A stretch of 64,000 nucleotides of DNA from Phormidesmis sp. (GTDB lineage: Bacteria; Cyanobacteriota; Cyanobacteriia; Leptolyngbyales; Leptolyngbyaceae): NCBI GenBank assembly GCA_965248535.1, contig CBDFJR010000005.1:2272001-2336000 (forward strand). Reading direction: 5' to 3'. The notes beneath the pieces were generated by a model, which did no database searches, was not told the DNA's origin, and saw only the letters and a program-made list of their open reading frames with translations. Numbering within the stretch: the stretch's first letter is position 1; every line of letters starts with the position of its first letter. Shown in pieces: positions 11,500 through 48,738 of this stretch. A program made the translations under genes and the position numbers.

Positions 11500-14400
11500 A
11501 TGCGTTCATTAAACCGCCAGTTATTAAAGCTTGCTAGAAGTGTGCCGTTGCGTCACATTTTGATAGTCCCTTTTATCCTGCAAATTTCGTTGGCGGTGGG
11601 TTTAACTGGGTGGCTCTCTATTCGCAATGGGCAACAAGCTGTTAACAATGTTGCAGGACAACTGCGAATAGAGAGCACGGCTCGAATTCAGCAATATCTG
11701 CAAACCTATGTCGAAACGCCTCACAAAATTAATGAACTCAATGCCGATTCGATTCGGTTAGGTGAGCTTGATGTGCAAGATCTGGCGGCTTTAGAACGAC
11801 ACCTCTGGTATCAACTTGAGACGTTTGATACTGTGACAGCAATTTATGTCGGGTCAGAGTTTCAAGAACACGTTGCGGTCGAACGTGATGATGAGGGCCA
11901 CTTTCAAGTGAAAGTTTCGGGAAAGTCTACTGACCATGAAATCCGCATCTATGCTGCTGATCGTCCAGGGCATCGCACCAAGCTCCTAAGGGCCAGACCT
12001 CACTACAATCCGCAGACTCGCCCCTGGTATCGATCGGCGGTCAAGTCTGGCACCGCAAGCTGGGGCGGCATCTATCGATTGTTTGCCACCCCCAGGTATG
12101 TGCTGAATGCTAGCTTGCCGATCTATGACGATCGCCGCAATTTGTTAGGGGTTGCTGCCGTTGATTTCTCACTCACGGGAATCAGTCAGTTTCTTCGCAG
12201 TTTAAAGATTGGACGATCGGGCGAAACGTTTATTGTTGAACGTCAAACGGGTCTGTTGGTGGGCAGTTCTGCGACTCAGCAACCCTACGTGATTCAAAAC
12301 CCTGCTGCGCCCATTGCAGAACAAAATCCGATGCGAGTCAAAGCAACTGAGAGCCACGACTCCTTGACCCGCCGCACGGCTGAATATTTGCAGCAACGGT
12401 TTGGAAAGGTCGATCAGATTGCTCAACCTCAACAACTCGACTTTGATATTGAGGGGCAACGACAATTTTTGCAAGTGGTGCCGCTCAAAACGGTTCAGGG
12501 GCTAGATTGGCTGATCATTGTGGTCGTTCCAGAAAGCGATTTTATGGATCAAATTCATGCCAACACTCGCACCACGATCGTGCTTTGTCTGAGCGCCTTT
12601 GCGCTGGCAACTGCTTTAGGCATTTTAACCGCCCGCTGGATTTCTCAACCGATTCTCAAGTTAGGCAGCGCGGCAAAAGCGATCGCAGCAGGAAACTTGG
12701 ATCAAACGGTCTCTGTGAGCAGCACCACTGAGCTAAATGGGTTGGCCCAATCGTTTAACCAAATGGCGCAGCAGTTGCGCGAATCTTTCTCAGCGTTGGC
12801 CCGCACGAATGAAGAATTAGAAAGCAGAGTCGAGCAGCGAACGATCGAACTTGGTGAACGAAACATTCAGCTTCAGCAAGAAGTGCGCGATCGTCAAATC
12901 GCAGAAGCCGCGCTCAAAACTTCTGAGGCAGAACTTCGATTAATGTTTGCAGCTATGACCGATGTGGTGGTGGTGTTTGATGCAGAAGGGCGCTATCTCA
13001 AAGATATGAAAACGCAGTCTTTTATCGATGAATCTGACATTGATCGGGTAGGCAAAACGGTTCATGACGTGTTGCCTGCTCCCGTTGCTAATCTGATTGC
13101 TGATGCGATTCGTCAAGCATTAGAGCTTCGCAGACAGCCTGCTCACTCAGATAGCACTCGCAAAAATATTTTTGTGGAATATCGCTCGACAATCCACGAT
13201 CGAGAAACCTGGTTTTTAGCGAGTGTCTCTCCGTTGTCTGATCAGGCAGTGCTGTGGGTTGCTCGTGATATTAGCAAGCTCAAAAAAACCGAAGTTGCGC
13301 TCCAGCAGGCGAAGGAATCCGCAGATGCTGCAAACTTGGCTAAGAGCCAGTTTCTCTCAAACATGAGTCATGAACTTCGGACTCCTCTCAACATTATTTT
13401 GGGGTTTACTCAACTGTTATTGCGAAACCGCGCCCTCAATCCTCAGCAGCAAGACTATCTAGACACCATCAATCGCAGTGGAGAAGATCTGCTGACCCTG
13501 ATCAACGATGTATTAGAAATGTCGAAAATCGAAGCGGGTCGAGTCACCCTCAACGAAACCGATTTTGACCTCTATGGACTGCTCGATCGCCTTCAGCAAA
13601 TGTTTGATCTCAAAGCCAAATCAAAAGGCTTAGAGCTTGTTTTTGAGCGATCGAGCGATGTGCCCCACTACATTCATGCAGATGAGAGCAAGTTGCGTCA
13701 GATTCTCGTCAATTTGATTGGCAACGCGATTAAATTTACGCAGGTAGGAAGTGTGACCCTGCAAGTCAGAACTGAGAGCCAGCCTGCCGATTTAGTCAGA
13801 CTTTGCTTTAGAGTCGAAGATACTGGGTGCGGCATTGCTTCCTCTGATCTCGTTTCTCAAGATGGGTCTCAAACGCCGCGTCTGTTTGAGCCATTTGTGC
13901 AGACAGAAGCGGGTCAAAAGGCTCAAGAGGGCACCGGACTGGGATTGCCCATCAGCGATCGGTTTGTGCGACTCATGGGCGGCAATCTGACCGTTGATAG
14001 CCAGTTAGGCAAAGGCTCGACCTTTAGGTTTGAGATTAGTGCTCATGCTGTGAGACTGGATACCCTACCAGTGCCAACACCGAGTCGAGACGTGATCGGG
14101 TCAGAGCCAGGACAACCCACTTACCGAATTTTGATTGTTGAGGACAAACTTGAAAATCGACGGCTGCTAGTTGAGTTGTTGACCCCGATCGGGTTTGACG
14201 TGAGAGAAGCAGAAGACGGACAAGCGGCGATCGCGCTTTGGCAAAGTTGGTCGCCCGATCTAATCTGGATGGATCTGCGGATGCCGATCATGAACGGGTT
14301 TGAGGCAACTCAACAGATCAAATCGGCTGCTGACCAAGCTCCCGTCATTATTGCGCTAACCGGAAGTGCCTTTGAGGAAGACCGTCTCACGGCGCTCTCG

Positions 14401-14772
14401 GTGGGCTTTGATGATTTTGTGCGAAAGCCCTTTCGGACAACGGTGATCTTTGAAAAGATGGCAGAGCACTTGGGCATTCGCTATCAGTATGCAGACGAGC
14501 AAGAATCTAGGTTATTGCCCTCTTATCCACTCAAGGTTGATGACTTAAACGAGATGTCGAGCGAGTGGATTGAGCAACTCTATCAAGCAGCCCTCCGCAT
14601 CAATGCTAAAAAAATTCTCAAGTTGATTGAGCAGATTCCTGAGACCCATGATCCTCTAATCAAAGCGCTCACAGATCTCACTGAACACCTTTGTTTTGAA
14701 GAAATTATTGCTCTCACCCAGCAATCACAGACCGATCGATTAAAACCTTTTCAGATGCCACGAGAGAATTAG
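11500..14772 (+). CDS. Membrane hybrid sensor kinase (Cache-HAMP-PAS-HisKA-HATPase-REC)
   Basis: Two TM segments, RPWY Cache motif, MSHELRTPL, NAIKFT, GTGLGL, receiver DLIWMDLRMP. Confidence 0.93.
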   Translation: MRSLNRQLLKLARSVPLRHILIVPFILQISLAVGLTGWLSIRNGQQAVNNVAGQLRIESTARIQQYLQTYVETPHKINELNADSIRLGELDVQDLAALERHLWYQLETFDTVTAIYVGSEFQEHVAVERDDEGHFQVKVSGKSTDHEIRIYAADRPGHRTKLLRARPHYNPQTRPWYRSAVKSGTASWGGIYRLFATPRYVLNASLPIYDDRRNLLGVAAVDFSLTGISQFLRSLKIGRSGETFIVERQTGLLVGSSATQQPYVIQNPAAPIAEQNPMRVKATESHDSLTRRTAEYLQQRFGKVDQIAQPQQLDFDIEGQRQFLQVVPLKTVQGLDWLIIVVVPESDFMDQIHANTRTTIVLCLSAFALATALGILTARWISQPILKLGSAAKAIAAGNLDQTVSVSSTTELNGLAQSFNQMAQQLRESFSALARTNEELESRVEQRTIELGERNIQLQQEVRDRQIAEAALKTSEAELRLMFAAMTDVVVVFDAEGRYLKDMKTQSFIDESDIDRVGKTVHDVLPAPVANLIADAIRQALELRRQPAHSDSTRKNIFVEYRSTIHDRETWFLASVSPLSDQAVLWVARDISKLKKTEVALQQAKESADAANLAKSQFLSNMSHELRTPLNIILGFTQLLLRNRALNPQQQDYLDTINRSGEDLLTLINDVLEMSKIEAGRVTLNETDFDLYGLLDRLQQMFDLKAKSKGLELVFERSSDVPHYIHADESKLRQILVNLIGNAIKFTQVGSVTLQVRTESQPADLVRLCFRVEDTGCGIASSDLVSQDGSQTPRLFEPFVQTEAGQKAQEGTGLGLPISDRFVRLMGGNLTVDSQLGKGSTFRFEISAHAVRLDTLPVPTPSRDVIGSEPGQPTYRILIVEDKLENRRLLVELLTPIGFDVREAEDGQAAIALWQSWSPDLIWMDLRMPIMNGFEATQQIKSAADQAPVIIALTGSAFEEDRLTALSVGFDDFVRKPFRTTVIFEKMAEHLGIRYQYADEQESRLLPSYPLKVDDLNEMSSEWIEQLYQAALRINAKKILKLIEQIPETHDPLIKALTDLTEHLCFEEIIALTQQSQTDRLKPFQMPREN

Positions 14773-16360: not shown

Positions 16361-19285
16361 TTAAAGCTGTTGTCGTGCCATCAGTTGAGCAAACAATCCC
16401 GTTTGATTGGCGAGTTGATTAAAACTGCCCTCCTGCACCACGCGACCACTTTGAAAAACATAAATGCGATCGGCGTTGCGAATCGTGCTGAGACGGTGAG
16501 CGATCGCGATTCGGGTCACCTTTAGACGCTCTAGGCTTTGGCTGACGATCGCTTGAGTGCGATTATCTAAAGCACTAGTCGCCTCGTCAAACAGTAGGAT
16601 TTTGGGTTTTAAGACGAGCGATCGGGCAATCAATAATCGCTGTCGCTGCCCTCCCGAAAGGTTTGTTCCGCCTTCGCTAATCACCGTGTGCATCCCCATG
16701 GGCATCGACTCGATATCCTCAGCAAAGCCAGCCATCCGAGCCGCTTCCCAGGCTTCATCCATCGTGATCAGGGCACCACTAGCGATATTCTCAAACAGCG
16801 AGGCAGAGGTTAGGCGGCTATTTTGCATCACCACGCCTAACTGCCGTCGCACGGCATAAACATCTAGCCCCGCTAAGTCTTGCCCGTCGTAATAGATCGT
16901 GCCAGATTCAGGAACATCAAACCCCAAGAGCAATCGAAATAGGGTTGATTTGCCACTCCCCGAAGCGCCCACAAAGGCGATGAATTCGCCCGGTTCGGCG
17001 CGGATGCTGACATCATCTAAGGTTAAAGGGCCATCGTCACGATATCGAAAAATGGCGTGATCAACGACGACTCGACCCGAAAGCCGACCCGGATCAGCCT
17101 TTTCAGAATTGACTTCGGGCTGGGCTTCTAAAATCGGTTGTGCTCGTTCCCACAGGGGGACAATGTTGAGAACATCGACGATCGTGCTACTTAAACTGGT
17201 CGCTCCACTAATAAAAGTACCAAATGCTGCATTGAATGCTAGAAAGACACCCGTTGATAAACTACCTTGCTGGGATTGTGATTGCTGAAGAAAGCTGGCT
17301 GCAAACCAAAAAATTGCTGCTGTAGTGAATGCAGGCAGAATTTTGTTAATCACCGCCAGAGCATCTTCGATGCCTTGGGTGCTCAACATCCATTTAATTT
17401 GCTGACTATATTGTTTGCCCCAAAATGCAAAGGCGCGAGCTTCGGCCCCAGCAACTCGAAGTTTAGTTACTCCGTTAATTAGTTGTACCATGACTCCAAA
17501 AAGCTGCCCCTGCAATTCTAATAACGGCCGAACTTTACGAAGACTAGAGATTCCTGATATAAGGGTTACGACAATATTAATGAGCGCAACAACGGTTGCG
17601 ATTAACGCGAGTGAAGGACTGTAGTAGAAGAGTAATCCTAGATTTAGAAATGCAAACAAGCTAGTAAAAATACTTCTGAGAACTGTGCTACTCAGCTTTT
17701 GGCGGATTTGACTGATCGCGCTGACTCGTGAGTTGAGATCCCCGATCGAGTATTGCCGAAAGAAAGACGCTTTGAGATTCAACAACCGATCCCAGACGGC
17801 CGATTGAGTCGAAGCATCGGCAAAGGTTTCGACCCGCATAATCGCAAACCCTTGAGCAAGCTGAAACAGCGTGCTGCCAAAAGCAGTTGCCAACAGAGCT
17901 AAGGCAATTTGAACCAATAAGCCACGATTGGCATCCGGGATGGCACTGTCGATTAAAATAGCGGTGGCTTGCGGCGCGATCATGCCCAGCAGCGTGGTCG
18001 CCATGCCTGCCACTAAGACAACTATTAACTCTTTGTAGTGTCCTCGCAGGGCAAATTTTAGCAAGTCGATCGTGGTCAAAACTTTATCAGGCAACGGACG
18101 ATAAAACGTATAGCCTGTTGGGGTGAGCGTCGCGGCACTTTTGGCAGTGACAGGGGTACGAGTTTGCTTGATCGGGTCAACGATCTCATAGTGCGTATCC
18201 GAGACAGGCAGCACCGCAACGGGATGAGTATCGGCCATCGTGTAAGCGAGCATGGCACCACAATCTTTTTTCCACCACTGACCTTGTAGCCCGATCGAGC
18301 GCGTTCGCAGTCGAGATGCCCGTGCGATCGCCTGTAGGGGATCATGGACTCGATTTAGGTCTTCAGACTTGGCAGGCGGGCGAATCGTCACGCCTAACAC
18401 GCGCCCAACGGCACCCGCTGCGATTAACAAGGACTGATCAGGATCGCTGGCTCCTGCTTGAGCCATAACCAACTGCGGAGATTGCAGCAGCGAGGCCAAC
18501 TCGCCCAGCGTTTCCTCCATGACCTGATGATTCAGGTGCTGTCGTTCGTGAAATCGCTGTAATTCTGCGTGAGTTTCTTGCTGGTCTAAAAAATAAAGGC
18601 TTTGCAGCACATAGATCTGAAGTTGAAAAATTCCTAGCAGCAGCGTGTTGGGGTCATCAATCTCAGACGTTGTTAAGCAAGAAAGCTCGATCGTGTCTTC
18701 GGCTTGAAACCACAGATCGGCACTTAAGGGCAACAGTCCCGATTGTGGTGTAAGCAATAGTTCATCAAATCCCATCCAAATCCCACGGCCGCGCTGAATT
18801 TCCACCCAGGACACCAGATCTCGCTGAGGTTGAAAAATCTGTCCATTCGTGAGGGAAAAGTAGCGCACGCCCTCTTCTTGAAACGGCAACGCCGGAGGCG
18901 CGATCGAGGACAGTGTCAATCCAAGTTGCTCAATCCAGCCATCTGCTAATATCAGGGCTTCGCCATTGCCCTCTGCCAAGAAGTCGCGAAAATCGTCGAT
19001 CGAGACTTTTAGCAAATCGGTGTCTGCGATCGCGACTGCAAACAGTTGATAAGGCATCGCTGCAAACTCGCTGCCGATCCCAAATAGTGCTTGTCTCGAT
19101 CGGGTTGTAAATAAGTAGCGACGAGTTCCTTCGGCAACGCCTTCTTTAATAGGAATCGCAAACACGGCTAGGGAACCCGACTTAACGATCCACACCGTTT
19201 GAGTGTCATCGAGAACAATCGATTCGTTGCCTTTTAGCTGACGATACTCTCCGGTTAATCGGATGCTCTGAATTTGATCCAACAT
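16361..19285 (-). CDS. NHLP-type bacteriocin export ABC transporter, permease/ATPase subunit (no peptidase)
   Basis: TM domain, GASGSGKS, LSGGQRQR, FDEATSALD; long N-terminal extension; WWKKDCGAMLA motif. Confidence 0.9.
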   Translation of the reverse strand: MLDQIQSIRLTGEYRQLKGNESIVLDDTQTVWIVKSGSLAVFAIPIKEGVAEGTRRYLFTTRSRQALFGIGSEFAAMPYQLFAVAIADTDLLKVSIDDFRDFLAEGNGEALILADGWIEQLGLTLSSIAPPALPFQEEGVRYFSLTNGQIFQPQRDLVSWVEIQRGRGIWMGFDELLLTPQSGLLPLSADLWFQAEDTIELSCLTTSEIDDPNTLLLGIFQLQIYVLQSLYFLDQQETHAELQRFHERQHLNHQVMEETLGELASLLQSPQLVMAQAGASDPDQSLLIAAGAVGRVLGVTIRPPAKSEDLNRVHDPLQAIARASRLRTRSIGLQGQWWKKDCGAMLAYTMADTHPVAVLPVSDTHYEIVDPIKQTRTPVTAKSAATLTPTGYTFYRPLPDKVLTTIDLLKFALRGHYKELIVVLVAGMATTLLGMIAPQATAILIDSAIPDANRGLLVQIALALLATAFGSTLFQLAQGFAIMRVETFADASTQSAVWDRLLNLKASFFRQYSIGDLNSRVSAISQIRQKLSSTVLRSIFTSLFAFLNLGLLFYYSPSLALIATVVALINIVVTLISGISSLRKVRPLLELQGQLFGVMVQLINGVTKLRVAGAEARAFAFWGKQYSQQIKWMLSTQGIEDALAVINKILPAFTTAAIFWFAASFLQQSQSQQGSLSTGVFLAFNAAFGTFISGATSLSSTIVDVLNIVPLWERAQPILEAQPEVNSEKADPGRLSGRVVVDHAIFRYRDDGPLTLDDVSIRAEPGEFIAFVGASGSGKSTLFRLLLGFDVPESGTIYYDGQDLAGLDVYAVRRQLGVVMQNSRLTSASLFENIASGALITMDEAWEAARMAGFAEDIESMPMGMHTVISEGGTNLSGGQRQRLLIARSLVLKPKILLFDEATSALDNRTQAIVSQSLERLKVTRIAIAHRLSTIRNADRIYVFQSGRVVQEGSFNQLANQTGLFAQLMARQQL

Positions 19286-19287
19286 GA

Positions 19288-21561
19288 TTAGGTCTCCTGA
19301 AGGGCTTCGCCCTCGCTGCGAATCAGTTGCAAATATTTGCCTTCGATCTGCTGTAGCTCGTCATGGGTGCCTCGCTGCACAACCTTGCCCCGATCGAAGA
19401 CAATAATTTCGTCACAATCTCGAATAGTGCTTAATCGATGCGCCACAATAACACAGGTACAGCCTCGTTCTCGCAGCTTCTGATCGACGAGTTTCTCCGT
19501 TTCAGAATCGAGAGCACTAGTCGCTTCATCCATCACGAGAATGGTCGGATTGTTGACTAAAGCACGGGCAATTTCTAATCGTTGTCGTTGCCCACCGCTT
19601 AAATTAGTGGCTCCTTCTGCGAGGTCAGCGCTATAGCCTCCCGGCATCGACAGCACGACATCCTGAATGGCAGCATCTTTGCAAGCGCGCACCAAATTGC
19701 TAAACGGAACGGTGGAATCCCACAGGGTGAGATTGTCTCGCACACTGCCTGCAAACAGCGAGATATCTTGCTCAATCAGGGCCATTGAATAGGTGATCTG
19801 CGATCGGGGAATCTGAGATCTCAGTTGACCATCGAACAGGATCTCTCCTGCCCACGGCTCATACAATCCACAAATCAGTTTGGCAACTGTTGATTTGCCC
19901 GACCCACTTCCGCCTACCAATGCGACTCGCTGACCCGGCTTGAGCGACAAACTCAAGTCTTCAATCAACGGAGGCGCAGAGCGGTTATAGCCAAAGGTGA
20001 GGTGACGCAGATCGATATAGCCTTGCAGTCGCACCGTTGCAGCCGAGAGTTCATGAATCGGTGGAGCACTGATTTCTGTCTCAACAACGGGGTCGATCGA
20101 GTTCCGCAACACGTCATCTAATCGACCGAGATTGCCTTCCATTTCCTGAAGTTCACCCGCCAGACCCACAAGGTTATTCACAGGCTCTAAAAATCGCTGC
20201 ATCAATGCTTGAAAGGCAATCAGCATTCCAATACTCAGAACGCCATCCATCACGCGCAGTCCGCCGACAACCAGTAATAGCATCGACGTAATCGCGGTCA
20301 AAAATGACGGCAATACTCCTAAGGTTTGATTGGTTGTATCCATTTCTTGCCGAGCATTGATCGCTTTGGCATAGTAGCCTGCCCAGCGCGAGAAGAATTC
20401 TGACTCTAACCCCGATGCCTTCAGCGTTTCCATACTCTGAAGTCCTGAAATAGACACGCCGCTGACTTTGCCTTGTTCTTGCATCAGCCGCAGATTGGCA
20501 TCTACGCGCTGCCGTGACACCCATCGCCAGACAGAGACATTGACGATCACAAAGGCAATCCCGATCGAGGTCAGCACGACATCGTATTGCAACATCACAA
20601 TGGCATAGAAAACCACCGTGACGGCAGAAATCACCGTTGTTGCTAATCGCCCTGAGAGCAAGCTTGCTAGGCTGTCATTCAGCCGCACTCGACTGCTGAT
20701 TTCTCCTGCAAATCGCTGGTCATAAAAGCTGACAGGCAGCCGTAAAATATGCCAGAGAAATCGGCTAGACATTCCAACTGCTAACTTAATTCTCATGCGG
20801 CGCAGAAATTTAAGCTGAAGCAGCGTTAAAAATCCGCTTAACACTGCGGTGAAAATGATGCCGAGAATTAAGGGACGCAGCCAATCGTCTCGTCCTTCGA
20901 TTAAAACATTATCAATAAACGCTTGGGAGAATGCTGGCATAGCTAACCCAGGAATCACTAACAGCAATCCTGCGATCACACAATATATTAATGCCCCGAT
21001 CGAACTCTGCAATCGATCCCACAACGCAAGCGTCAGGCTCGGTTTACGTCCTCCAGGTTGAAACTCTAACCCCGGCTCACCGACCAACACCACCCCTGTA
21101 AACGACTGATCGAATTCTGCTTGGGTGACGGTGCGCGGGCCAGTTGCCGGATCATTGAGATAAACACTATCTTTGTGAAACCCTTCAACCACCAAGAAGT
21201 GATTAAAGTTCCAGAAAACAATATAGGGACACTCTAATTTGCGTAACCCATCTAAATCGACCTTAAAGCCCTTTGCCTGCAATCCATAGCTGCGAGCCGC
21301 GTTGAGAATGTTAGACGCTTTGCTGCCGTCGCGAGAAACGCCGCAGGCTTGACGCAATTCGGCGAGGGGAACAATCCGATTGTGGTATCCCAGCACAATG
21401 CCCAATGCTGCTGCACCACATTCGACGGCCTCCATTTGCAAGAGAGTCGGAGTTTTACGGCGACGATTACTCCGAAGGGGGAACTGTTTTGCAACGGGGC
21501 GACTCACCCTCTGTTGAAGGTGTCTCAAGCTCCGCCCAATATAGCCTTGAAGTTGCTGCAT
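19288..21561 (-). CDS. NHLP-type C39 peptidase/permease/ATPase (PCAT)
   Basis: QMEAVECGAAAL catalytic Cys, WNFNHFLVV His, GGSGSGKS, LSGGQRQR. Confidence 0.93.
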   Translation of the reverse strand: MQQLQGYIGRSLRHLQQRVSRPVAKQFPLRSNRRRKTPTLLQMEAVECGAAALGIVLGYHNRIVPLAELRQACGVSRDGSKASNILNAARSYGLQAKGFKVDLDGLRKLECPYIVFWNFNHFLVVEGFHKDSVYLNDPATGPRTVTQAEFDQSFTGVVLVGEPGLEFQPGGRKPSLTLALWDRLQSSIGALIYCVIAGLLLVIPGLAMPAFSQAFIDNVLIEGRDDWLRPLILGIIFTAVLSGFLTLLQLKFLRRMRIKLAVGMSSRFLWHILRLPVSFYDQRFAGEISSRVRLNDSLASLLSGRLATTVISAVTVVFYAIVMLQYDVVLTSIGIAFVIVNVSVWRWVSRQRVDANLRLMQEQGKVSGVSISGLQSMETLKASGLESEFFSRWAGYYAKAINARQEMDTTNQTLGVLPSFLTAITSMLLLVVGGLRVMDGVLSIGMLIAFQALMQRFLEPVNNLVGLAGELQEMEGNLGRLDDVLRNSIDPVVETEISAPPIHELSAATVRLQGYIDLRHLTFGYNRSAPPLIEDLSLSLKPGQRVALVGGSGSGKSTVAKLICGLYEPWAGEILFDGQLRSQIPRSQITYSMALIEQDISLFAGSVRDNLTLWDSTVPFSNLVRACKDAAIQDVVLSMPGGYSADLAEGATNLSGGQRQRLEIARALVNNPTILVMDEATSALDSETEKLVDQKLRERGCTCVIVAHRLSTIRDCDEIIVFDRGKVVQRGTHDELQQIEGKYLQLIRSEGEALQET

Positions 21562-21563
21562 GA

Positions 21564-23006
21564 TTAGTAGACTCCACTCCACGATCGCAGAATTGGCAAC
21601 ACAAACGAAATCGGCGATTGTTCAGAGACTTTGACCCGCACTGAGGTCGTCGTGCCGGAGGTGATTTCGGTGTCAGGGCCCTTTGACGACGACCAGCGAA
21701 ACTGGCTTTTGGTCGTGGGGTCTGGCTGAAGCTCTGCAAATACTTGAATCTGTGCATCTTTAGTAGTCAACCCCTGCAAAACTTCAGCACCGCCTACAAC
21801 ACTCGATGCACCCTCTTTGGTCACTGGAAAGGCAGACACGTTGGTCACGGTGGCCACAATGCCCCCAAAGCGTTCTCGCTTGACCGTGGAGGGCGTAACT
21901 TGCAGTTCCATCCCTTTCTGGATTTTTTTGCCCTCACTGACGGGGAAAAACATCACCCCAACTAGCTTGCTATTAGCATCTTGAGCCTCAATTGTGCCCA
22001 TGCGTCCACCCTCTTGCAAGGTTTGTCCTGGCACGACGACAACTTCTAATACTCGCCCATCAAAGCTACTGGTGACTTGACTATTGCCTTTGAGTTGCGA
22101 TTGCAATTGCACGATCGCGCGTTCGGTCTCTTGAATTTCTTTTTGACGATTCGTTGCAATGGCTGAATCTTGTTCGGCTTGCCCTGCTGATCTTGTATCC
22201 AAAGTCGATAATTGAGCCTGTAAATCTTTACCCGCATTGACGTTTTCTAGAAACTGTCGCTGGGCATCGGTTTCTTTAACATTCAACTGTTTCAGTTCCG
22301 ATTCAATTTCACCGATTTTAGACTTGCTATTGAGAAATTCTTGCTGTGCCTGAAGCACGGTGTCGCTCGAAACCGCGCCCTCTCGACGCAACTGCTGCCG
22401 CAGTTCAAACCGTTGTTGAAAGGTGGGCACTAATTCTCGCGTCGTCTGCAATTGTTGCAGCAAGGTTTGCCGCTCTTGCCGAATCGAGTCTAATCCTTTC
22501 TCCCTCAAAATCGGCGCGATCGCTTGCGTTGTCTCTAAGCTTTGCAGCAGTGCTTGCCGCTGTTGTTGAAGAGCACCTTTATCTAAAACCGTTCGCTGAA
22601 ATTGCAGCGAGGTGGCTGTGCGATCTTGCTCTTGCAGTTGACTGAGTTTTCCCCGCGCCAAATTCAGCTTTTCTTGCAGATCAGTTTGGTCGATCGTGGC
22701 GATTATCTGCCCTTTTGTGACCCGATCGCCTGGATGAATAGTCAAACTCAAAATCTTCCCAGAACTAGGAGACTGAAATGCGGCAACTTTGCTTGGAAAC
22801 ACGAGCACTCCCTGCCCTGCAATGGTAATGGGAATGCGACCGAAAACACTCCAGATCAAGCCAACAGCAATCAAAGATCCCATCGCAGCTAACGGAATCC
22901 ATTTCTTAGGCTGAACGACCTGCATCAGTTGATCAAGCCGCTCTGGAGACGATAAGCGATCGAGCGCTTCTTTTCGGAACAGGTTGCTTTTGGGAGTCGT
23001 GACCAT
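21564..23006 (-). CDS. NHLP bacteriocin system secretion protein (HlyD-like membrane fusion protein)
   Basis: LFRKEALDRLSSPERLDQLM N-terminus, TM, long coiled coil, WSSSKGP..PISFVLP C-terminus. Confidence 0.93.
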   Translation of the reverse strand: MVTTPKSNLFRKEALDRLSSPERLDQLMQVVQPKKWIPLAAMGSLIAVGLIWSVFGRIPITIAGQGVLVFPSKVAAFQSPSSGKILSLTIHPGDRVTKGQIIATIDQTDLQEKLNLARGKLSQLQEQDRTATSLQFQRTVLDKGALQQQRQALLQSLETTQAIAPILREKGLDSIRQERQTLLQQLQTTRELVPTFQQRFELRQQLRREGAVSSDTVLQAQQEFLNSKSKIGEIESELKQLNVKETDAQRQFLENVNAGKDLQAQLSTLDTRSAGQAEQDSAIATNRQKEIQETERAIVQLQSQLKGNSQVTSSFDGRVLEVVVVPGQTLQEGGRMGTIEAQDANSKLVGVMFFPVSEGKKIQKGMELQVTPSTVKRERFGGIVATVTNVSAFPVTKEGASSVVGGAEVLQGLTTKDAQIQVFAELQPDPTTKSQFRWSSSKGPDTEITSGTTTSVRVKVSEQSPISFVLPILRSWSGVY

Positions 23007-23070
23007 GATTCCATTCCAATAACTGAATTTTATAGTTAGCAATTAAGTCAACGTGATTTCCAGTGTTAAC

Positions 23071-24168
23071 TCAATTGCCTCGAATCTGCTTGAGCATCCA
23101 ATCAAATCGAGTGCCCGCTAGCGTTACCTGAGCCAAAAACCCAGAACTCAACTCATCCTCATAGGTGAAGCGCTCATCTAAGGATTGACCCGCGCTATAG
23201 GTGATTCTGCCGTAGCCCAGCCGATTGATAATGCCCTGCTGTTTGTCCGCCAACAAAATCGCCAACACCCGATAAAATCGAGCCGCAAACCCCTGATCGT
23301 GCAGCAGCTTTGCAGCTAGGTGCCAGCGTGGAATTGACAGCACTGTGGCATCGTCGATCGCGCGAATCGTCATCGCCGGAGGACTCGCTTCCACAAAGGG
23401 CGTTTCGCCTACCATGTCACCCCGCGATAACTTGGCAAACTCTCGCTCGACTTGATCAGTGTTTTCCAAACTCGAAAACGCACGCATGAGCGGATTGCTG
23501 ACATCCTCCGCGATCGCTGCTGCCATTTTGCCATCTAGCAGAATGTGCAGTGCATCAACAGGTCTTCCAGCATGAACTAAGACCGATCCCGCCGGAATTC
23601 TTGTAGCAGTGCCCGCAGCAATCATCCAACCGATATCACTATCGTTTAATTCTGCAAACGTAAAGAGAATTTCTCGAAGTTGAGGCTGACACAAAACCAC
23701 TGTGCTGTGACCGATTTGGCTCACCATCTGCTCTAATCGGTGGGCTAACAGCACCGCGATCGCCCGATAGAAATGAGCCGCAAACGGGATGTCAGTCTGC
23801 ATTTTCTCGATCAACTGCTGCTGCGGAACCACCAAGACCAGCGACTTTCTGACGGCTTTAACGGTAGTAGATGATTGATGAGAGGCTAAGAACGGCATCT
23901 CACCCACGACTTCTCCGCTGGCGAGTCTGGCGATTTCCCGCCCCGACAGTTCACCCCCTTCGAGGGCAGCAAACGCTCGCCCGATCGGGTTATCGTCAGC
24001 CTGAGCTACTGAAACGGTCAAGGCACCATCCAACAAAATATAGAGAGCATTCACGGGCATTCCTTGGCGGATCAGAGTGGTGCCAGCCGCAATTTCTTCT
24101 CTCCGGCCCGTTGCTAAGATCCAGTCAATATCGCAATTACTCAATTCCTTCAATAGAACTTCTGTCAT
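23071..24168 (-). CDS. Protein of two tandem cNMP-binding domains
   Basis: Repeated ELSNCDIDW / ELNDSDIGW..ALYILLDG / ALHILLDG..GEVVGEMPF / GDMVGETPF..FAAHFYR / FAARFYR. Confidence 0.88.
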   Translation of the reverse strand: MTEVLLKELSNCDIDWILATGRREEIAAGTTLIRQGMPVNALYILLDGALTVSVAQADDNPIGRAFAALEGGELSGREIARLASGEVVGEMPFLASHQSSTTVKAVRKSLVLVVPQQQLIEKMQTDIPFAAHFYRAIAVLLAHRLEQMVSQIGHSTVVLCQPQLREILFTFAELNDSDIGWMIAAGTATRIPAGSVLVHAGRPVDALHILLDGKMAAAIAEDVSNPLMRAFSSLENTDQVEREFAKLSRGDMVGETPFVEASPPAMTIRAIDDATVLSIPRWHLAAKLLHDQGFAARFYRVLAILLADKQQGIINRLGYGRITYSAGQSLDERFTYEDELSSGFLAQVTLAGTRFDWMLKQIRGN

Positions 24169-24373
24169 AGTTTGATGTCCTCTTGGGTTGCGAACGGGCG
24201 AAGAATGGGAACAACTCATTTGAATCATTTGAACAGTAGGCACCCCCAGCAATCTCGATCAGTTCTTGAACCCACGCTATGGATTAATCGCACGGTGTGG
24301 TTTCCATTAGCATGGTGTGTTCTGGTTAGGTTGTTTGCTTGGTTCAATCAATCTGATCAATTAATCTGATCAA

Positions 24374-24673
24374 TTAATCTGAACCTTCGATCGCGGCTGC
24401 ATTTCCCAGCAATCCGCCCAGAAATTCCAGATCCTCCGCACTCGCATCTGTAATGACGATTTGCAGCCCTGCCGACTCTATGGTTTCTGCCGAAAACGCA
24501 GATTTTGAAGAGCCACACCCTGCCCCGCCAGTCTCTTGAGAAAGCGAGACATTGGACTGCCGAAAAAAGGCTGCGTTTAACCGCAGATTAAGACCGCCTG
24601 ATACATCATCTAGCTCCTGATCGGATAGCTCGGCAAACGTCGGATCGGTGGGCTTTATTTCGTGGTCTGACAT
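24374..24673 (-). CDS. Double-glycine-leader precursor peptide 4 (72-aa core; cyanobacterial tandem bacteriocin-like)
   Basis: Leader ELSDQELDDVSGG; AAGGAG RBS; adjacent to PCAT operon. Confidence 0.85.
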   Translation of the reverse strand: MSDHEIKPTDPTFAELSDQELDDVSGGLNLRLNAAFFRQSNVSLSQETGGAGCGSSKSAFSAETIESAGLQIVITDASAEDLEFLGGLLGNAAAIEGSD

Positions 24674-24732
24674 AGTTGCTCCTTTAAGTCGTTTGGTAAG
24701 GGCACAGCCGAGCCATGCCCCCTCGAAATCGA

Positions 24733-24951
24733 TTATTTACCCGTTTCTTCTTCTTCAAAGATTGAGGCGCTAAAGTCGTCTGTCGATTGGAATAGAGTGC
24801 TGCGAACTCCATTGCGATTGGCTTCAAGCGTGCTGATCTGCACATCTTGTAACTCTGTGGTAGAAGCCGCTGCTCTACGATGTGCGCCGCCCGCAACAAT
24901 ATCGAGTTCTTCAGAAGTCATTTCCATGACGATGTGGGATTCTGTATTCAT
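24733..24951 (-). CDS. Double-glycine-leader precursor peptide 3 (50-aa core)
   Basis: Leader EMTSEELDIVAGG; AGGAG RBS; paralogous to neighbours. Confidence 0.88.
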   Translation of the reverse strand: MNTESHIVMEMTSEELDIVAGGAHRRAAASTTELQDVQISTLEANRNGVRSTLFQSTDDFSASIFEEEETGK

Positions 24952-25018
24952 TGAGATCTCCTAGGATAATGGGTAGATAGTTGAGTCAGTTTCAGTGAAT
25001 TTAGAGCACAGGCAGACC

Positions 25019-25231
25019 TTAGTGGCCCGTTTCGGTAAACTCAACGATCGCAGCTTTAAAGTCGTCGGTTTGTTGAATGTTGGTGCTGTGAACTCCGTCG
25101 CGATTGGAACTGAGGTTGCTCAGTTGCACATCAACCAGTTCTTGGGTTGCAGCCGCTGCTGCTCGTCTTGCACCGCCTGCAATGATATCGAGATCTTCAG
25201 CAGACAATTCTACGGGCTTGTTGTTAGACAT
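25019..25231 (-). CDS. Double-glycine-leader precursor peptide 2 (50-aa core)
   Basis: Leader ELSAEDLDIIAGG; AAGGAG RBS. Confidence 0.9.
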   Translation of the reverse strand: MSNNKPVELSAEDLDIIAGGARRAAAAATQELVDVQLSNLSSNRDGVHSTNIQQTDDFKAAIVEFTETGH

Positions 25232-25283
25232 GATGGTTCTCCTTAAGTGTTGTTGGATTGCAAAGAGTAATGAGAGTTCAGAG

Positions 25284-25314
25284 AGAGGGGATTGATCCTA
25301 AAATAATCCCCTCT
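25284..25314 (-). other. Intercistronic stem-loop between precursors 1 and 2
   Basis: AGAGGGGATT / AATCCCCTCT perfect 10-bp stem, 11-nt loop. Confidence 0.6.
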
Positions 25315-25340
25315 ATAAATAGATGACCCAGACAGTAGAA

Positions 25341-25556
25341 CTATTTGCCTGTCTCGGTAAACTCAACGATCGTGGCTTTAAAGTCGTCGGTTTGTTGAAT
25401 GTTGGTGCTGTGAACTCCGTCGCGATTGGAACTAAGATCACTCAGTTGCACATCAACCAATTCTTGGGTTGCAGCCGCTGCTGCTCGTCTTGCACCACCT
25501 GCAACGATATCAAGTTCGTCAGCAGACATTTCCATGGGCTTGTTATTATCAGACAT
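25341..25556 (-). CDS. Double-glycine-leader precursor peptide 1 (50-aa core)
   Basis: Start at MSDNNK after AAGGAG; leader EMSADELDIVAGG; core 47/50 identical to peptide 2. Confidence 0.9.
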   Translation of the reverse strand: MSDNNKPMEMSADELDIVAGGARRAAAAATQELVDVQLSDLSSNRDGVHSTNIQQTDDFKATIVEFTETGK

Positions 25557-25949: not shown

Positions 25950-27014
25950 ATGTTAAATCGATTTAAACTTGCAACCAAATTCACCCTATTGCTATCGCTG
26001 GTGTTTGTCGGTGCGATCGTGGTTAGTGGGGTCGCGTTCTCTCACGTCCTAGAACAGAAAGCCGAATCTGAAATTAGCTACCGTAGCCAAATTTTAGTAG
26101 AAACTATGAACTCGGTGAGAGCCTTCACAAACAAAAATATTAGCCCACTGCTCATGCCGATGGTAGAGACTCAACCGACCTTTGTTCCTGAAACGATTCC
26201 CAGTTTTGCAGTCAGAGAGGTGTTTGAAAATCTTCGCAAAAATGAAGACTATAAAGACTTTTTCTATAAAGATGCGCTGCTGAATCCAACCAATTTAAGA
26301 GATAAAGCAGATGAGTTTGAAGCCAGTCTCACTAAGCGATTTCAGAGCGAACCAGACCTTAAAAATATCTCTGGTTTTCGAGATTCTGTGGGTGAAAAAC
26401 TATTCTATAGCGCTCGTCCATTTTCAGTCAAAAATGCAACGTGTTTGCGCTGCCACAGCACACCAGGCGTAGCTCCAAAAAGTCATGTTGCCAGCTATGG
26501 GTCAGAAAATGGCTTTGGGTGGAAGCTGCACGAAGTTTTAGGTAGCCAGGTGATTTATGTTCCTGCGAGTCAAGTATTTAATGATGCCAATCGAGCATCT
26601 TTGTTAATCATGACGATCTTCGTTGGCATTTTTGCACTCGTCATTTTGTTGATTAACTATTTGCTCAAGCGAAATGTGCTGCAACCGATTAAACCGATGG
26701 CACAACTCGCCCAAAAAATTAGTATGGGTGAGGTTAGCGCTGAAGAAGCGGCAGAGTTTGAACATGAAAAGCTAGCCCCGATCGTCAAACGCAATGATGA
26801 ATTAGGTCAATTGGCACGAGTGTTTCAACGGATGGTGCATGAAATATATGCCCGTGAGCAACAACTCAAACAACAATTGCAAAAACTGCGTCTTGAAATT
26901 GACGATAACAAGCGAGCGCGTCAAGTCGCTGAGATTGCCGAATCAGAATCGTTTCAAAAGCTCCAAGAAGAAGCAAAAGCCATGAGACATAAACGCGATG
27001 CTGACCACGAATAA
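25950..27014 (+). CDS. DUF3365 (Tll0287-like haem c) sensor with HAMP and coiled-coil tail
   Basis: Two TM, LNPTNLRDKADEFE, CLRCH haem-binding motif, DELGQLARVFQRM HAMP; no catalytic output domain. Confidence 0.85.
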   Translation: MLNRFKLATKFTLLLSLVFVGAIVVSGVAFSHVLEQKAESEISYRSQILVETMNSVRAFTNKNISPLLMPMVETQPTFVPETIPSFAVREVFENLRKNEDYKDFFYKDALLNPTNLRDKADEFEASLTKRFQSEPDLKNISGFRDSVGEKLFYSARPFSVKNATCLRCHSTPGVAPKSHVASYGSENGFGWKLHEVLGSQVIYVPASQVFNDANRASLLIMTIFVGIFALVILLINYLLKRNVLQPIKPMAQLAQKISMGEVSAEEAAEFEHEKLAPIVKRNDELGQLARVFQRMVHEIYAREQQLKQQLQKLRLEIDDNKRARQVAEIAESESFQKLQEEAKAMRHKRDADHE

Positions 27015-27079: not shown

Positions 27080-27889
27080 GTGTCTGAAATTATCTCGATC
27101 CATTCATTTCGTGGCGGAACAGGTAAGTCAAACGTAACGAGCAATCTTGCTACTCTCCTCGCTCGCTCTGGAAAACGAGTTGGCGTGGTCGATACCGACA
27201 TTCAATCACCCGGAATTCACGTCTTATTTGGTCTTGAAGAAGATCGCATTCGCTACACGCTGAATGATTATTTATGGGGTCGTTGCACTATTGAGGAAGC
27301 CGTTTATGAGGTCACTCCTACTCTCAAGCAGAAACCATCTTTTTTTGGTCGCCAAGGTAGTGTTCATCTGATTCCTTCTAGCATTAAGATGAGCGATATC
27401 TCTCGCATTCTGCGCGAAGGCTATGATGCTCGGTTGCTCAATGATGGACTGCGTGATCTCGTGCGTCGCTTAAAGTTAGATTATCTTCTGATCGATACTC
27501 ATCCCGGTATTAACGAAGAGACACTATTGTCGATTATTCTCTCAGATACCTTTATCTTGATTCTGCGACCAGACAAACAAGACTATCAGGGAACAGCCGT
27601 CGCGATCGACGTTGCCCGTAAGTTAGAAGTGCCTAAGATGCTGCTGGTTATCAACAAAGCATTGCCCTCTCTAGACTTTAAAGAATTAAAGCTGCGAGTC
27701 CAAAACACCTACGAAGCTCCGGTTGCAGGGATTCTTCCAGTCTGTGAAGAGATGTTTGATCTGGGGAGCAGCGGGATCTTCTGTCTGCGCTATCCCGATC
27801 ATCCCTGGACGCGAGCAGTTAACGAAATCGTGCAGCAAATCACAGGTTCCAGTTCACTTAAACAATCGAACGGGTTTTTGTTGAAGTAA
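27080..27889 (+). CDS. MinD/ParA family ATPase
   Basis: IISIHSFRGGTGKSN deviant Walker A, VDTDIQSPG, LIDTHPG. Confidence 0.88.
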   Translation: MSEIISIHSFRGGTGKSNVTSNLATLLARSGKRVGVVDTDIQSPGIHVLFGLEEDRIRYTLNDYLWGRCTIEEAVYEVTPTLKQKPSFFGRQGSVHLIPSSIKMSDISRILREGYDARLLNDGLRDLVRRLKLDYLLIDTHPGINEETLLSIILSDTFILILRPDKQDYQGTAVAIDVARKLEVPKMLLVINKALPSLDFKELKLRVQNTYEAPVAGILPVCEEMFDLGSSGIFCLRYPDHPWTRAVNEIVQQITGSSSLKQSNGFLLK

Positions 27890-28783
27890 CGTCACCGTCT
27901 CCCGCGTATCGCCTGGGAAAATGGCTCTCACCCGCTCGACTACAGAAATCATGTAGGTGTAGTCTGCAACAGGCGCATTGGTCACAAACTCCGCTTCTTG
28001 AGCAACTACAGACGGCGTTTCGCTTAAAATCTTGCGAATCGATTCTTGAGCCTTACTCTCGATCGTAGGACTGATCAACACCGCCCCAGTCGGCACTGTG
28101 TGAACATCCGTCAACACAATCCGCAAATTAAGGGGAGTAACTTGACTTTTGTAGGTCTCAAATTCTTCTAGCGACACGGCACCAACGGCTGCTTTGCCTT
28201 GAGAAACCGCTTCTAAAATCGCCTTGGGCGTGGGAGGAAAGATCAGTTCAGCCAGCGTTAACCCATACAAATTAAAAATCGGAAGGTAATATCCTGTGGC
28301 TGAACCTGGCTTTCCAAGCGCGACTGACTTACCCGCGATCGCGCCAATCTCTCGAATCGGGCTATCATCTCGCACGACCAGCACTGAGCGCAACTCCTGC
28401 ACCCCAATCATCGGAAAGAGAGGCCTATATTGATGGTGCGCGATCGCGATTGCGGCTAACCCTGGCGGTGCAAAAACCAGCGACCACTCCTGACGTTGAA
28501 TTCTCTCTAAAGCCCTGCCTTCGTTGAGAGCAGGTTCTAACTCTACCAGCGACTGAGTTTTTTCACTGAGATAGTGTTTGAAGCGATCGTATCGATCAAG
28601 AGATTGACGGCCCTCTTCATAGCTGACGGTTCCTACCACCAGCGATCGCCGTTGCGGCGAAGGAAGTGTCGCTTGGCAGGAAGACAACAACAATAAACCG
28701 AGAAACCCACGACGAGAAAGCCTGAGAGGTAAGCCTGAACTCAACAATCTAATTGCTCTGTGGGCAGTTGCGTTAGTCATCAT
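27854..28783 (-). CDS. PhnD/phosphonate-type substrate-binding lipoprotein, orphan
   Basis: SRRGFL..LSSC Tat-like/lipobox; SVLVVRDDSPI and GSATGYYLP motifs. Confidence 0.8.
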   Translation of the reverse strand: MMTNATAHRAIRLLSSGLPLRLSRRGFLGLLLLSSCQATLPSPQRRSLVVGTVSYEEGRQSLDRYDRFKHYLSEKTQSLVELEPALNEGRALERIQRQEWSLVFAPPGLAAIAIAHHQYRPLFPMIGVQELRSVLVVRDDSPIREIGAIAGKSVALGKPGSATGYYLPIFNLYGLTLAELIFPPTPKAILEAVSQGKAAVGAVSLEEFETYKSQVTPLNLRIVLTDVHTVPTGAVLISPTIESKAQESIRKILSETPSVVAQEAEFVTNAPVADYTYMISVVERVRAIFPGDTRETVTLLQQKPVRLFK

Positions 28784-29062
28784 GTCTTTACTCTGCTAGT
28801 TGCCGATCTAAAAGAATGTCTGAGAAGTCTTTCATCGTTATTCCGCCTCAATAGTGCCCCGCCCGAAATCTACTTTAGGGAGAGCTAGCAGCAAAGAGGC
28901 ATTAAGCGTTTTGTGGCGTTGCTAAATCACGGGATGAATGGTTCCATAAATCCCCCAATGCTGAGGTTCAAAGTTCCCCAGAGTGAGGGACTGAGGGGGC
29001 GAGAGGATTAACAACTTGCACAGATTCATCGGTTTTTCAAGCGCTAAAAGCCCCAGTTAACC

Positions 29063-29171
29063 AGACCTCCTGCATCAATAAAATGCTGACAGAAATTCCC
29101 CAATTCTAGGGGAACCGGAGTTCAAAATTCTCCAGAATTGGGGAGCATGTCCAGATTCGCGCAGGAGGGTT
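29063..29171. mobile_element. MITE-like element with imperfect AGACCTCCTGCA terminal repeats
   Basis: Left AGACCTCCTGCATCAAT, right ATTCGCGCAGGAGGGT; related ends at ~5683, ~39706, 45222-45249 (27/28 nt match) and ~62285. Confidence 0.6.
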
Positions 29172-29184
29172 ATTCTGGCGATGA

Positions 29185-29889
29185 TCAGTCAGTTATTCCT
29201 AGCCTAGTGGTGAGAGTCTGTTTTTCGCTTGACGTTGCATTCGCATAAATGGCAAGCTGCGATCGGTTTTTCAAATTAAGGCGGTTGAGAATACTCGTGA
29301 CGTGAGTTTTAACAGTGCCTTCTGTAATGTATAGCTGTTGAGCAATTTCACGATTGGTCGCACCTACAGCTAGCAGGCGCAATACTTCTTGTTCTCGTGC
29401 AGTCAAGTCTGATGATTTGAGAGAAGAAGAGCTTTGATGGGGTGAGTCTGCGGGCGCGTCAGTTGATAGAAGTTTGTCAAACAACCCGGGCCCAAACTGA
29501 GTATAGCCATAATATCCAAAGCGGATGGCATCGGCTAATTCTTTTGAGGGCATATCTTTGAGTAAATAGCCTTTTGCCCCTGCCCGCATTGCGCCTGCTA
29601 GATAAGAATCATCATCAAAGGTGCTTAAGATCAGAACTTTGATATTAGGAAAGTTTTGCATAATATGTTTTGTAGCAGTTCGTCCGTCCATTTCGGGCAT
29701 CCGAATATCCATAAGCACCACATCGGGTTGCAGGGCGGCGACTAGTTCTAGAGCGACTTTGCCATTCTCAGCATCGCCCACCACTTCTAAGTCAGATTCT
29801 TGTTCTAGCATGGCTTTGAGTCCCTGACGAATCAGGCTTTGGTCATCAACAATCAACAGACGAATGGTGGGGGAGTCATCGCTTTTCAT
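29185..29889 (-). CDS. NarL/LuxR family response regulator
   Basis: VDDQ..DVVLMDIRMP receiver; LTAREQEVL..TVKTHV HTH. Confidence 0.93.
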   Translation of the reverse strand: MKSDDSPTIRLLIVDDQSLIRQGLKAMLEQESDLEVVGDAENGKVALELVAALQPDVVLMDIRMPEMDGRTATKHIMQNFPNIKVLILSTFDDDSYLAGAMRAGAKGYLLKDMPSKELADAIRFGYYGYTQFGPGLFDKLLSTDAPADSPHQSSSSLKSSDLTAREQEVLRLLAVGATNREIAQQLYITEGTVKTHVTSILNRLNLKNRSQLAIYANATSSEKQTLTTRLGITD

Positions 29890-29934
29890 GAGAGCACCTT
29901 GTTTAGTCGGAATTCACGATCGAGCGCACTTCAA

Positions 29935-30348: not shown

Positions 30349-30663
30349 AACAAATTCGATCAGGAGACTTGCTTGAGGATATTTGGCAAATTAGTTTAGA
30401 TTTCACCTCGCCCACTGGTTGAGTTGTGGGAGTTAAATCGCTCTAATTTGACAGTCTTAGTGTACCGAAGTTAAAGGGTTGTCCACATCTCATAAATGTC
30501 ACGGCTCAATAATGACATTTGTCACGCGATCGCCCGCTTGCCCCCTAGAACTCTATCCCAAACTGGGAGAGGGAAGCAGGAATCTGGTTCAAAAGAGAGT
30601 AGGGGGGTCTTCTACCCGCGTCGCAAGGAGGGTGAAGATCTCAGCATTCATCAATCTACACCC

Positions 30664-48653: not shown

Positions 48654-48684
48654 AAACAGTTAGTAGAGAAAAAATCACTCCTCT

Positions 48685-48716
48685 ACTCTAAACCTTGACA
48701 TTAGTGTCAATGTCAA
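48685..48716 (-). promoter_or_regulatory. MerR-type promoter/operator for coaT
   Basis: -35 TTGACA, 20-nt spacer containing TTGACA-N4-TGTCAA, -10 TAGAGT. Confidence 0.78.
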
Positions 48717-48738
48717 CCTTCTCGTTTACGATTAAGGG

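What the first reader, a model, noticed from the sequence alone, without database searches (positions are those of the whole stretch)
16361..25556. Tandem double-glycine peptide export system with no tailoring or immunity genes
Seen: one co-oriented run of four GG-leader precursors, a double cNMP-domain protein, an HlyD-like adaptor, a C39 peptidase-ABC (Cys and His intact) and a second peptidase-less ABC. No LanM, YcaO, radical SAM, ATP-grasp or recognisable immunity gene lies anywhere in the window. Known: the NHLP-type three-gene exporter usually accompanies modified RiPPs, and in Synechococcus elongatus GG-leader EbfG proteins, exported with the help of the C39 transporter PteB, build the biofilm matrix. 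Inference: this locus exports unmodified ~5-7 kDa subunits, and a bacteriocin label is probably a misnomer. It may be a regulated matrix/fibre or signalling secretion system.
Basis: partly seen in the sequence, partly recalled or inferred. Interest (0 to 1): 0.85.

Follow-up and report, generated by a model that had tools for sequence, protein, structure and literature searches.

The report
Cyanobacterial exported beta-hairpin peptide array
This is a known type of cyanobacterial peptide-export cluster labelled 'bacteriocin', but its small cargo proteins look like unmodified, acidic, long beta-hairpins in fixed major and minor classes, which fits building blocks of a surface fibre better than an antibiotic; no one has tested this.

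Summary
There are four GG-leader genes, a double cNMP-fold protein (TIGR03896), HlyD, an intact C39-ABC and a peptidase-less ABC. The layout is known: a Wang-2011 group V cluster carrying 'CTB family bacteriocins' (NF038167/PF28158). The genome gave no LanM, YcaO, SPASM or MvdC match.

The cargo anatomy is what I did not find in print. Across 20 close loci the order is fixed: 2-9 type A genes, one B, one or two C, then the exporter. C is decayed here. All 91 A cores are anionic and lack Cys, Met and Trp. A folds as a 22+22-residue beta-hairpin with no lipid-facing side; B is a hairpin plus a C-terminal helix. A heme-c Cache sensor and a MinD-like ATPase flank 18 of 20 loci.

Best reading (0.5): type I export of unmodified hairpins that polymerise into a surface or matrix beta-filament, with A as major subunit and B as base. 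Antagonism (0.25) and signalling (0.15) remain open. cAMP control is doubtful, since both cNMP folds lack the phosphate-binding Arg. The peptides are not EbfG homologues. No function was tested. The scan's notes held nothing related.

The parts
25341..25556 (-). Type A precursor A1 (71 aa; 21-aa GG leader, 50-aa core, charge -3); predicted beta-hairpin
25019..25231 (-). Type A precursor A2 (70 aa; core 94% identical to A1, dN 0.04, dS 0.23)
24733..24951 (-). Type A precursor A3 (72 aa; core 62% identical to A1, charge -4)
24374..24673 (-). Type B precursor (99 aa; 72-aa core, charge -6); predicted hairpin plus C-terminal helix; single copy in 20 of 20 close loci
24137..24313 (-). Decayed type C GG gene: in-frame stop in the leader region and about 93 nt missing after the GG site; leader remnant at 24242-24271
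   Evidence: intact C in 20 of 20 close loci
23071..24168 (-). Double cNMP-fold protein (TIGR03896, 365 aa); lacks the phosphate-binding Arg in both domains
21564..23006 (-). HlyD-type adaptor (TIGR03794)
19288..21561 (-). C39 peptidase-ABC transporter (TIGR03796), Cys/His/Asp and ATPase motifs intact
16361..19285 (-). Peptidase-less ABC transporter (TIGR03797) with a weak N-terminal cNMP-fold match (20.9 bits, under cut-off)
25950..27014 (+). Divergent Tll0287-like (sCache_heme) plus HAMP membrane sensor with CxxCH at residue 165; in 18 of 20 close loci
27080..27889 (+). MinD/ParA-like ATPase; in 18 of 20 close loci and 15 of 48 other TIGR03896 loci

Best explanation
A type I secretion system (C39-ABC, second ABC, HlyD, and a TolC-like channel encoded elsewhere) removes the GG leader and exports unmodified hairpin peptides. 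Freed of the leader, the 50-65-residue A cores, each a two-stranded ribbon of about 22+22 residues, pair edge to edge into a beta-sheet filament or tube on the cell surface or in the matrix. The single-copy B hairpin, with its C-terminal helix, is the base, nucleator or cap. C is a dispensable accessory, lost here. Tandem A copies raise dosage and vary the surface. The double cNMP-fold protein is a partner of the exporter that probably does not bind cAMP or cGMP in the usual way. Input more likely comes from the divergent heme-c Cache sensor (NO or redox) and MinD-like ATPase. Shown: genes, motifs, gene order, composition, selection. Predicted: folds. From family knowledge: cleavage and export. 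Inferred only: assembly, the A/B/C roles, the regulation.
For: AlphaFold2: A1 core is all hairpin, E2-23/E26-47, pLDDT 88; B is E2-20/E30-48 plus helix 52-69, pLDDT 80. 91 of 91 A cores from 20 loci have charge -2 to -6 and no Cys, Met or Trp, with 41% Q/N/S/T/G; the turn starts at residue 23 in 71 of the 81 where the pattern matched (10 unmatched). No lipid-facing side: best 10-residue single-face hydropathy median 0.48, max 1.33, against shuffled median 1.09. Opposite-charge cross-strand pairs peak at register 0/+1 (3.1%, 3.0%; 0.3-1.7% at other shifts) in 42 non-redundant cores. Fixed order and stoichiometry A(2-9)-B(1)-C(1-2) in 20 of 20 close loci and again in four further relatives, one without C. 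B is strongly conserved (dN 0.125, dS 2.19 against Phormidesmis). 84 of 91 B-like proteins end in an amphipathic helix (moment 0.5 or more, median 0.66; shuffled median 0.48). No conserved small membrane gene. Precedents: GG-exported EbfG1-3 form amyloid-like fibrils (PMC9981879), and the Microcystis CT pilus is a tube of long antiparallel hairpins (PMC12397347).
Against: No experiment, and no structure of any family member. A hairpin monomer model does not show polymerisation, and pTM is low (0.39, 0.44). The register test is weak: related sequences, turn placed by my pattern, and no peak for hydrophobic pairs. The window's own B helix is acidic and weakly amphipathic (0.32), so an anchor role is doubtful for this subtype. 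Patchy presence (B in 2 of 7 other genomes of the genus, 6 of 36 of the family, 7 of 401 in the phylum sample), swapped A alleles and dN/dS of about 0.3-1.06 among close Nostoc A cores fit a conflict system equally well. The nearest, non-significant, structural matches include pore-toxin stems.
Confidence: 0.5

Rival explanations
1. An unmodified multi-component bacteriocin. A and B hairpins oligomerise into a beta-barrel that damages the envelope of competing cells; any fibre is a storage form, as for microcin E492.
For: Family label and exporter type. Top weak fold matches are beta-pore stems (Foldseek E 0.011, TMq 0.46; VIA Z 4.5, rmsd 5.0 over 50 residues). Patchy distribution and variable A alleles. 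Many B-like cores elsewhere are cationic (52 of 87) with an amphipathic tail. MccE492 is both a pore former and an amyloid (PMC4729943 abstract). CTB genes rise under phosphate starvation in Nodularia and were read as allelopathic (PMC9846622 passages).
Against: 0 of 81 A cores have a lipid-facing face. All 91 A and all 20 B cores of the close loci are non-cationic. No conserved immunity-like membrane gene. The fold matches are below significance and also include phage tail, flagellar ring and ENA fibre hairpins.
Confidence: 0.25
2. Secreted signal or kin-recognition ligands, read by the sensors that flank the locus.
For: The heme-Cache/HAMP and MinD pair flanks 18 of 20 close loci, and a NarL-type regulator flanks 10 of 20. 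A distant Scytonema locus keeps those genes and a hybrid kinase 56% identical to the window's. A alleles come in discrete types.
Against: 50-70-residue hairpins in up to 9 near-identical copies are costly for a signal. The conserved sensor has a c-heme motif (20 of 20), and that family is reported to bind NO or do redox work, not peptides (PMC12889525 preprint passages).
Confidence: 0.15
3. The cores are RiPP substrates modified by enzymes encoded elsewhere, as for group V clusters served by a distant LanM in Prochlorococcus MIT9313.
For: That precedent is in Wang 2011. LanM occurs in 21 of 33 TIGR03896 genomes, including 4 of the 7 that hold B. Cores are Ser/Thr rich. The genome has 22 radical SAM domains not classed one by one and a lasso-like RRE, transglutaminase-like and nucleotidyltransferase cluster about 130 kb away.
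Against: No LanM, LanC-like, YcaO, SPASM or over-cut-off MvdC match in this genome. No Cys in 91 of 91 A cores. The leaders are short and not NHLP or Nif11 type.
Confidence: 0.07

Closest known systems
Cyanobacterial 'bacteriocin' cluster group V (Wang, Fewer, Sivonen 2011, PMC3140520) with the three-gene NHLP exporter (Haft et al. 2010, PMC2887384)
   Same: Short C39-ABC, peptidase-less ABC, HlyD, a protein of two CAP_ED domains, arrayed GG precursors, no LanM.
   Different: The cargo is not NHLP or Nif11 type but CTB hairpins in fixed A/B/C classes. The loci with this cargo fall in one TIGR03896 branch (FastTree support 0.86) whose scanned neighbours include no tailoring enzyme; other branches sit beside LanM, radical SAM, YcaO, JmjC or halogenase genes.
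CTB family, 'cyanobacterial tandem bacteriocin' (NF038167, PF28158)
   Same: Two peptides are over cut-off and two just or well under it; homologues carry PF28158.
   Different: The name rests on annotation. The two papers my search found only list the genes, and I found no structure or assay.
EbfG1-4 / PteB of Synechococcus elongatus (PMC4997328, PMC9981879)
   Same: Tandem GG precursors of similar size, a C39 exporter, extracellular products; a structural role is shown there.
   Different: No homology found. NF038167 and TIGR03896 do not ring in S. elongatus (controls), the EbfG amyloid motif is in 0 of 43 A and 0 of 24 B cores, and that genome has group I and III clusters only.
CT pilus (MrpC) of Microcystis (PMC12397347)
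   Same: A cyanobacterial extracellular tube held together by long antiparallel beta-hairpins.
   Different: A different family: signal peptide, two hairpins plus helix-turn-helix, O-glycosylated, and other neighbouring genes. An architectural precedent only.
Microcin E492 (PMC4729943, abstract only)
   Same: A small exported bacteriocin that also forms amyloid, so fibre and toxin are not exclusive.
   Different: It is a proven pore former. It needs an immunity protein (recalled); none is seen here.

Membership tests
Wang group V cluster | Short-type C39-ABC transporter | tested here: met
   TIGR03796 1167 bits; C39, membrane and ATPase domains
Wang group V cluster | Second ABC transporter without peptidase, and HlyD | tested here: met
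   TIGR03797 and TIGR03794 over cut-off
Wang group V cluster | Protein of two CAP_ED/cNMP domains | tested here: met
   TIGR03896 302 bits; PF00027 two stretches
Wang group V cluster | No LanM in the cluster (LanM defines group IV) | tested here: met
CTB family (NF038167) | Score over the curated cut-off, tandem GG precursors in a cyanobacterium | tested here: met
   B 42.3 and A1 33.2 over 32; A2 31.9 and A3 23.6 under, but 94% and 62% identical to the A1 core
Bacteriocin or microcin (functional) | Antimicrobial activity | not testable with these tools
   needs an assay
Bacteriocin or microcin (functional) | Linked immunity gene | tested here: inconclusive
   No conserved small membrane ORF in 20 loci; a soluble or unlinked factor, or B or C itself, is not excluded
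Modified RiPP (lanthipeptide, LAP, SPASM, graspetide) | Cognate tailoring enzyme in the cluster or genome | tested here: not met
   caveat: 22 radical SAM domains not classed singly
NHLP / Nif11 precursors | Long NHase- or Nif11-derived leader | tested here: not met
   Leaders of 20-27 aa, no such hit; the genome's one Nif11 ORF lies elsewhere and shows no GG site by eye
EbfG | Core homology or the A-Phi-N-I-small motif | tested here: not met
   0 of 43 and 0 of 24; indirect, since EbfG sequences could not be fetched
Canonical cAMP/cGMP-binding domain | Arg of the phosphate-binding cassette | tested here: not met
   Ser99 aligns with the Arg of PycTIR and Bd1971; Arg is not among the six commonest residues at position 99 and is absent at 264 in 68 proteins
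Functional amyloid or beta-tube pilin | Self-assembly into filaments | not testable with these tools
   needs EM, dye binding or cryo-EM
CT pilin or beta-pore toxin fold | Significant structural match | tested here: inconclusive
   Best Z 4.5 (A) and 3.5 (B); no Foldseek match at E of 0.001 or less
Transmembrane beta-barrel pore | Alternating hydrophobic face of about 10 residues on both strands | tested here: not met
   0 of 81 A cores reach mean hydropathy 2.0; assumes my turn register

The most novel reading that the evidence does not exclude
CTB 'bacteriocins' are the subunits of an undescribed class of beta-hairpin pilus or tube. It is built outside the cell from peptides that a GG-leader type I system activates by cleavage, with variable major subunits (A), one conserved base or nucleator (B), and expression tied to a heme-c NO/redox sensor. 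This would be a fibre biogenesis route with no usher, sortase or curli channel.
Probability: 0.33. Interest if true: 0.8.

Novelty: new variant of a known kind. Interest (0 to 1): 0.52.

Why it matters
Genome-mining tools count clusters like this as bacteriocin pathways, and CTB genes occur in 37 of 401 sampled genomes of the phylum, mostly in one family (33 of 46). If the cores are fibre subunits, a whole annotated family is misread. Filamentous cyanobacteria would also gain a candidate protein scaffold for mats, crusts or lichen colonisation, and the test is cheap: the cores are about 50 residues, unmodified and easy to synthesise. If they are antagonists, they would be an unusual anionic, immunity-free hairpin class.

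Tried and rejected
Complex prediction of four A copies: no verdict; not used as evidence. Sequencing runs: no RNA holder listed. Contigs of four unlabelled runs were laid; they give no expression data. Two runs of one study carry the decayed C region with 0-1 differences but may be the source sample. One contig of another study joins back by 322 nt, which is either an extra A copy or a repeat artefact.

Fold searches: nothing significant; CT pilin and GvpA were not listed, which excludes nothing. PDB sequence searches with the A and B profiles: one chance hit and none. A profile search of 1.84 billion representatives with A cores gave 8 hits: six CTB-like precursors, one fragment with an A-like C-terminal half, and one repetitive, probably spurious ORF; no multi-repeat fibre protein. 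ESM Atlas for the B core without PF28158: no hit at 0.9 or more.

A promoter/terminator scan was at chance level. The LanC search rang in no control genome, so (21 of 33 positive) serves as the control. EbfG sequences were not in the supplement's text, so no direct alignment was possible. A C-terminal tail motif for the sensor family was tried and was uninformative. Scan notes: one unrelated dnaX note and two blanks. Rejected readings: cAMP/cGMP-gated export in the canonical sense, EbfG membership, lanthipeptide.
Full report
Observation. The minus-strand run from 25556 to 16361 is as described. NCBIfam names every part: TIGR03896, TIGR03794, TIGR03796 and TIGR03797 over cut-off, and the four small genes as NF038167 'CTB family bacteriocin' (two over, two under the cut-off). 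The C39 Cys, His and Asp and both ATPase motif sets are intact. Pfam scans of 46 of the 54 ORFs of 120 aa or more show no RiPP enzyme.

Rest of the genome (99.8% complete). No match was found for LanM (21 of 33 TIGR03896 genomes positive), YcaO or SPASM, and none over cut-off for MvdC. There are 22 radical SAM domains that I did not class singly, and a lasso-like RRE/transglutaminase-like cluster about 130 kb away. A leader profile built from 67 related leaders finds only the four window genes, so they are this exporter's likely cargo. One TolC-like protein lies elsewhere. A second array of three CTB genes with another leader type sits beside a rotamase on contig C2, and a long-type C39-ABC with HlyD lies on C5.

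Comparative anatomy. A scan with the cNMP protein gave 33 loci. Twenty have the window's cargo layout. The others are nine without adjacent GG genes (one truncated), three with B only and one with A and B. In the 20, the order is always A array, one B, one or two C, cNMP protein, HlyD, C39-ABC, second ABC, as far as the contigs reach. A copy number is 2-9 and A sequences come in several allelic types. Four more relatives repeat the order, one without C, as does a Scytonema locus without C. In a tree of 69 TIGR03896 proteins (40 loci were fetched by handle), the CTB-cargo loci share one branch (support 0.86). I scanned 76 of 202 neighbour clusters of 230 aa or more. The 52 chosen from CTB-cargo loci hit no tailoring family; the 24 from other branches include LanM, two radical SAMs, YcaO, two JmjC and a halogenase. 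Some neighbours of CTB loci, and all shorter ones, were not scanned. The system is accessory: B was found in 7 of 401 genomes of the phylum sample and in 2 of 7 other genomes of the genus.

The cargo. All 91 A cores are anionic and lack Cys, Met and Trp; the turn sits at residue 23 in 71 of 81 matched cores. AlphaFold2 gives A1 as one hairpin of two 22-residue strands (pLDDT 88) and B as a hairpin plus helix (pLDDT 80). A bare two-stranded ribbon of this length is unlikely to be stable alone (inference). Its weak structural neighbours are mostly hairpins of ring or tube oligomers: pore stems, phage tail parts, flagellar rings and ENA fibre (Z up to 4.5). The A cores have no lipid-facing side and score below shuffled sequences on that measure, which argues against a membrane barrel. 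Opposite charges are modestly enriched across the predicted register; hydrophobic pairs are not. A cores are under purifying selection over long distances (dN/dS about 0.1-0.4) but near neutral in some close Nostoc pairs (up to 1.06); B is at about 0.06. B-like proteins elsewhere mostly end in an amphipathic, often basic helix (84 of 91), but the window's B helix is weak.

Regulation. Both cNMP folds keep the Gly-Glu but lack the Arg that contacts the cyclic phosphate. This holds against PDB relatives and across 68 homologues; the role of that Arg is textbook knowledge, recalled. The conserved regulatory neighbours are the divergent Tll0287-like/HAMP sensor and a MinD-like ATPase (18 of 20 loci), with CxxCH in 20 of 20 full-length sensors. 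A preprint reports NO binding by a HAMP-linked member of that family (PMC12889525, passages). A link to this operon is inferred from gene order only.

Literature seen. Wang 2011 (PMC3140520, parts 1-3 of 5) defines group V by these genes and notes LanM working in trans in Prochlorococcus. Micallef 2015 (PMC4558948, passages; author name recalled) repeats the definition. Haft 2010 (PMC2887384, passages; author name recalled) describes the three-gene exporter. Parnasa 2016 (PMC4997328, parts 1-2 of 5; supplement searched) and PMC9981879 (passages) cover EbfG export and amyloid. PMC12267927 (passages and section 17) predicts amyloid hotspots in Anabaena GG peptides and says a GG motif does not predict bacteriocin activity. 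PMC12397347 (parts 1-4 of 10) gives the CT pilus. PMC9846622 and PMC9679502 (passages) only list CTB genes. PMC4729943 was seen as abstract only. Searches found no paper on the fold, the A/B/C classes or the function of CTB peptides. The library lacks most subscription papers, and I did not read Wang's precursor table.

Verdict. What appears new is the cargo logic: variable-copy major hairpins, a single conserved minor hairpin with a helix, a dispensable third peptide, degenerate cNMP domains and a linked heme sensor. An extracellular beta-filament is the most economical reading (0.5), but nothing here shows assembly, and patchy, variable cargo fits antagonism too (0.25). Interest 0.52.

Noticed in passing
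L009:9337-11736 (G000 C2 about 2,435,300-2,437,700): Second CTB array: three hairpin-type GG genes with a different leader, a fourth unrelated GG gene and a rotamase. No transporter lies in the 20 kb fetched; the long-type C39-ABC is the likely exporter.
   Followed up: partly
L010:6770-12212 (G000 C5 about 2,201,800-2,207,200): Long-type C39-ABC with HlyD and a 131-aa ORF that looks HetP-like (label recalled; no Pfam hit).
   Followed up: partly
L171:2835-10939 (G000 C5 about 2,420,800-2,428,900): Lasso-like gene set: PqqD/RRE, Transglut_core3, nucleotidyltransferase, HPr-kinase-like, glycosyltransferase, ABC. No precursor or cyclase was identified nearby.
   Followed up: partly
L043-L049, L063, L065-L068, L074: In other TIGR03896 branches a DUF7005 protein (13 loci), the MinD-like ATPase and a dCache protein recur beside the exporter whatever the cargo; possibly a general accessory module.
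   Followed up: partly
L111-L113, L054, L060-L062; P0018-P0105: A B-only variant with an Arg-rich loop and a basic amphipathic tail stands alone before the cNMP gene. A-like arrays lie elsewhere in at least G163, G251 and G267.
   Followed up: partly
window 33540-33950: Stand-alone Hcp-family gene (PF05638); no other type VI genes were seen in the window.
   Followed up: no
window 34053-35267: IS605-family TnpB-like gene.
   Followed up: no
window 46737-54497: Heavy-metal cluster: two P-type ATPases, MerR-CbiC fusion, cupredoxin, DUF305.
   Followed up: no
window 11500-14772, 27854-32426: Hybrid Cache kinase, PhnD-like binding protein and NarL-type regulators; several recur beside related CTB loci (L082-L099, L136).
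   Followed up: partly
L093:7350-8914: A Nostoc locus carries the same A allele type as the window and Phormidesmis although its transporter groups with other Nostoc; suggests cassette exchange (not tested).
   Followed up: no
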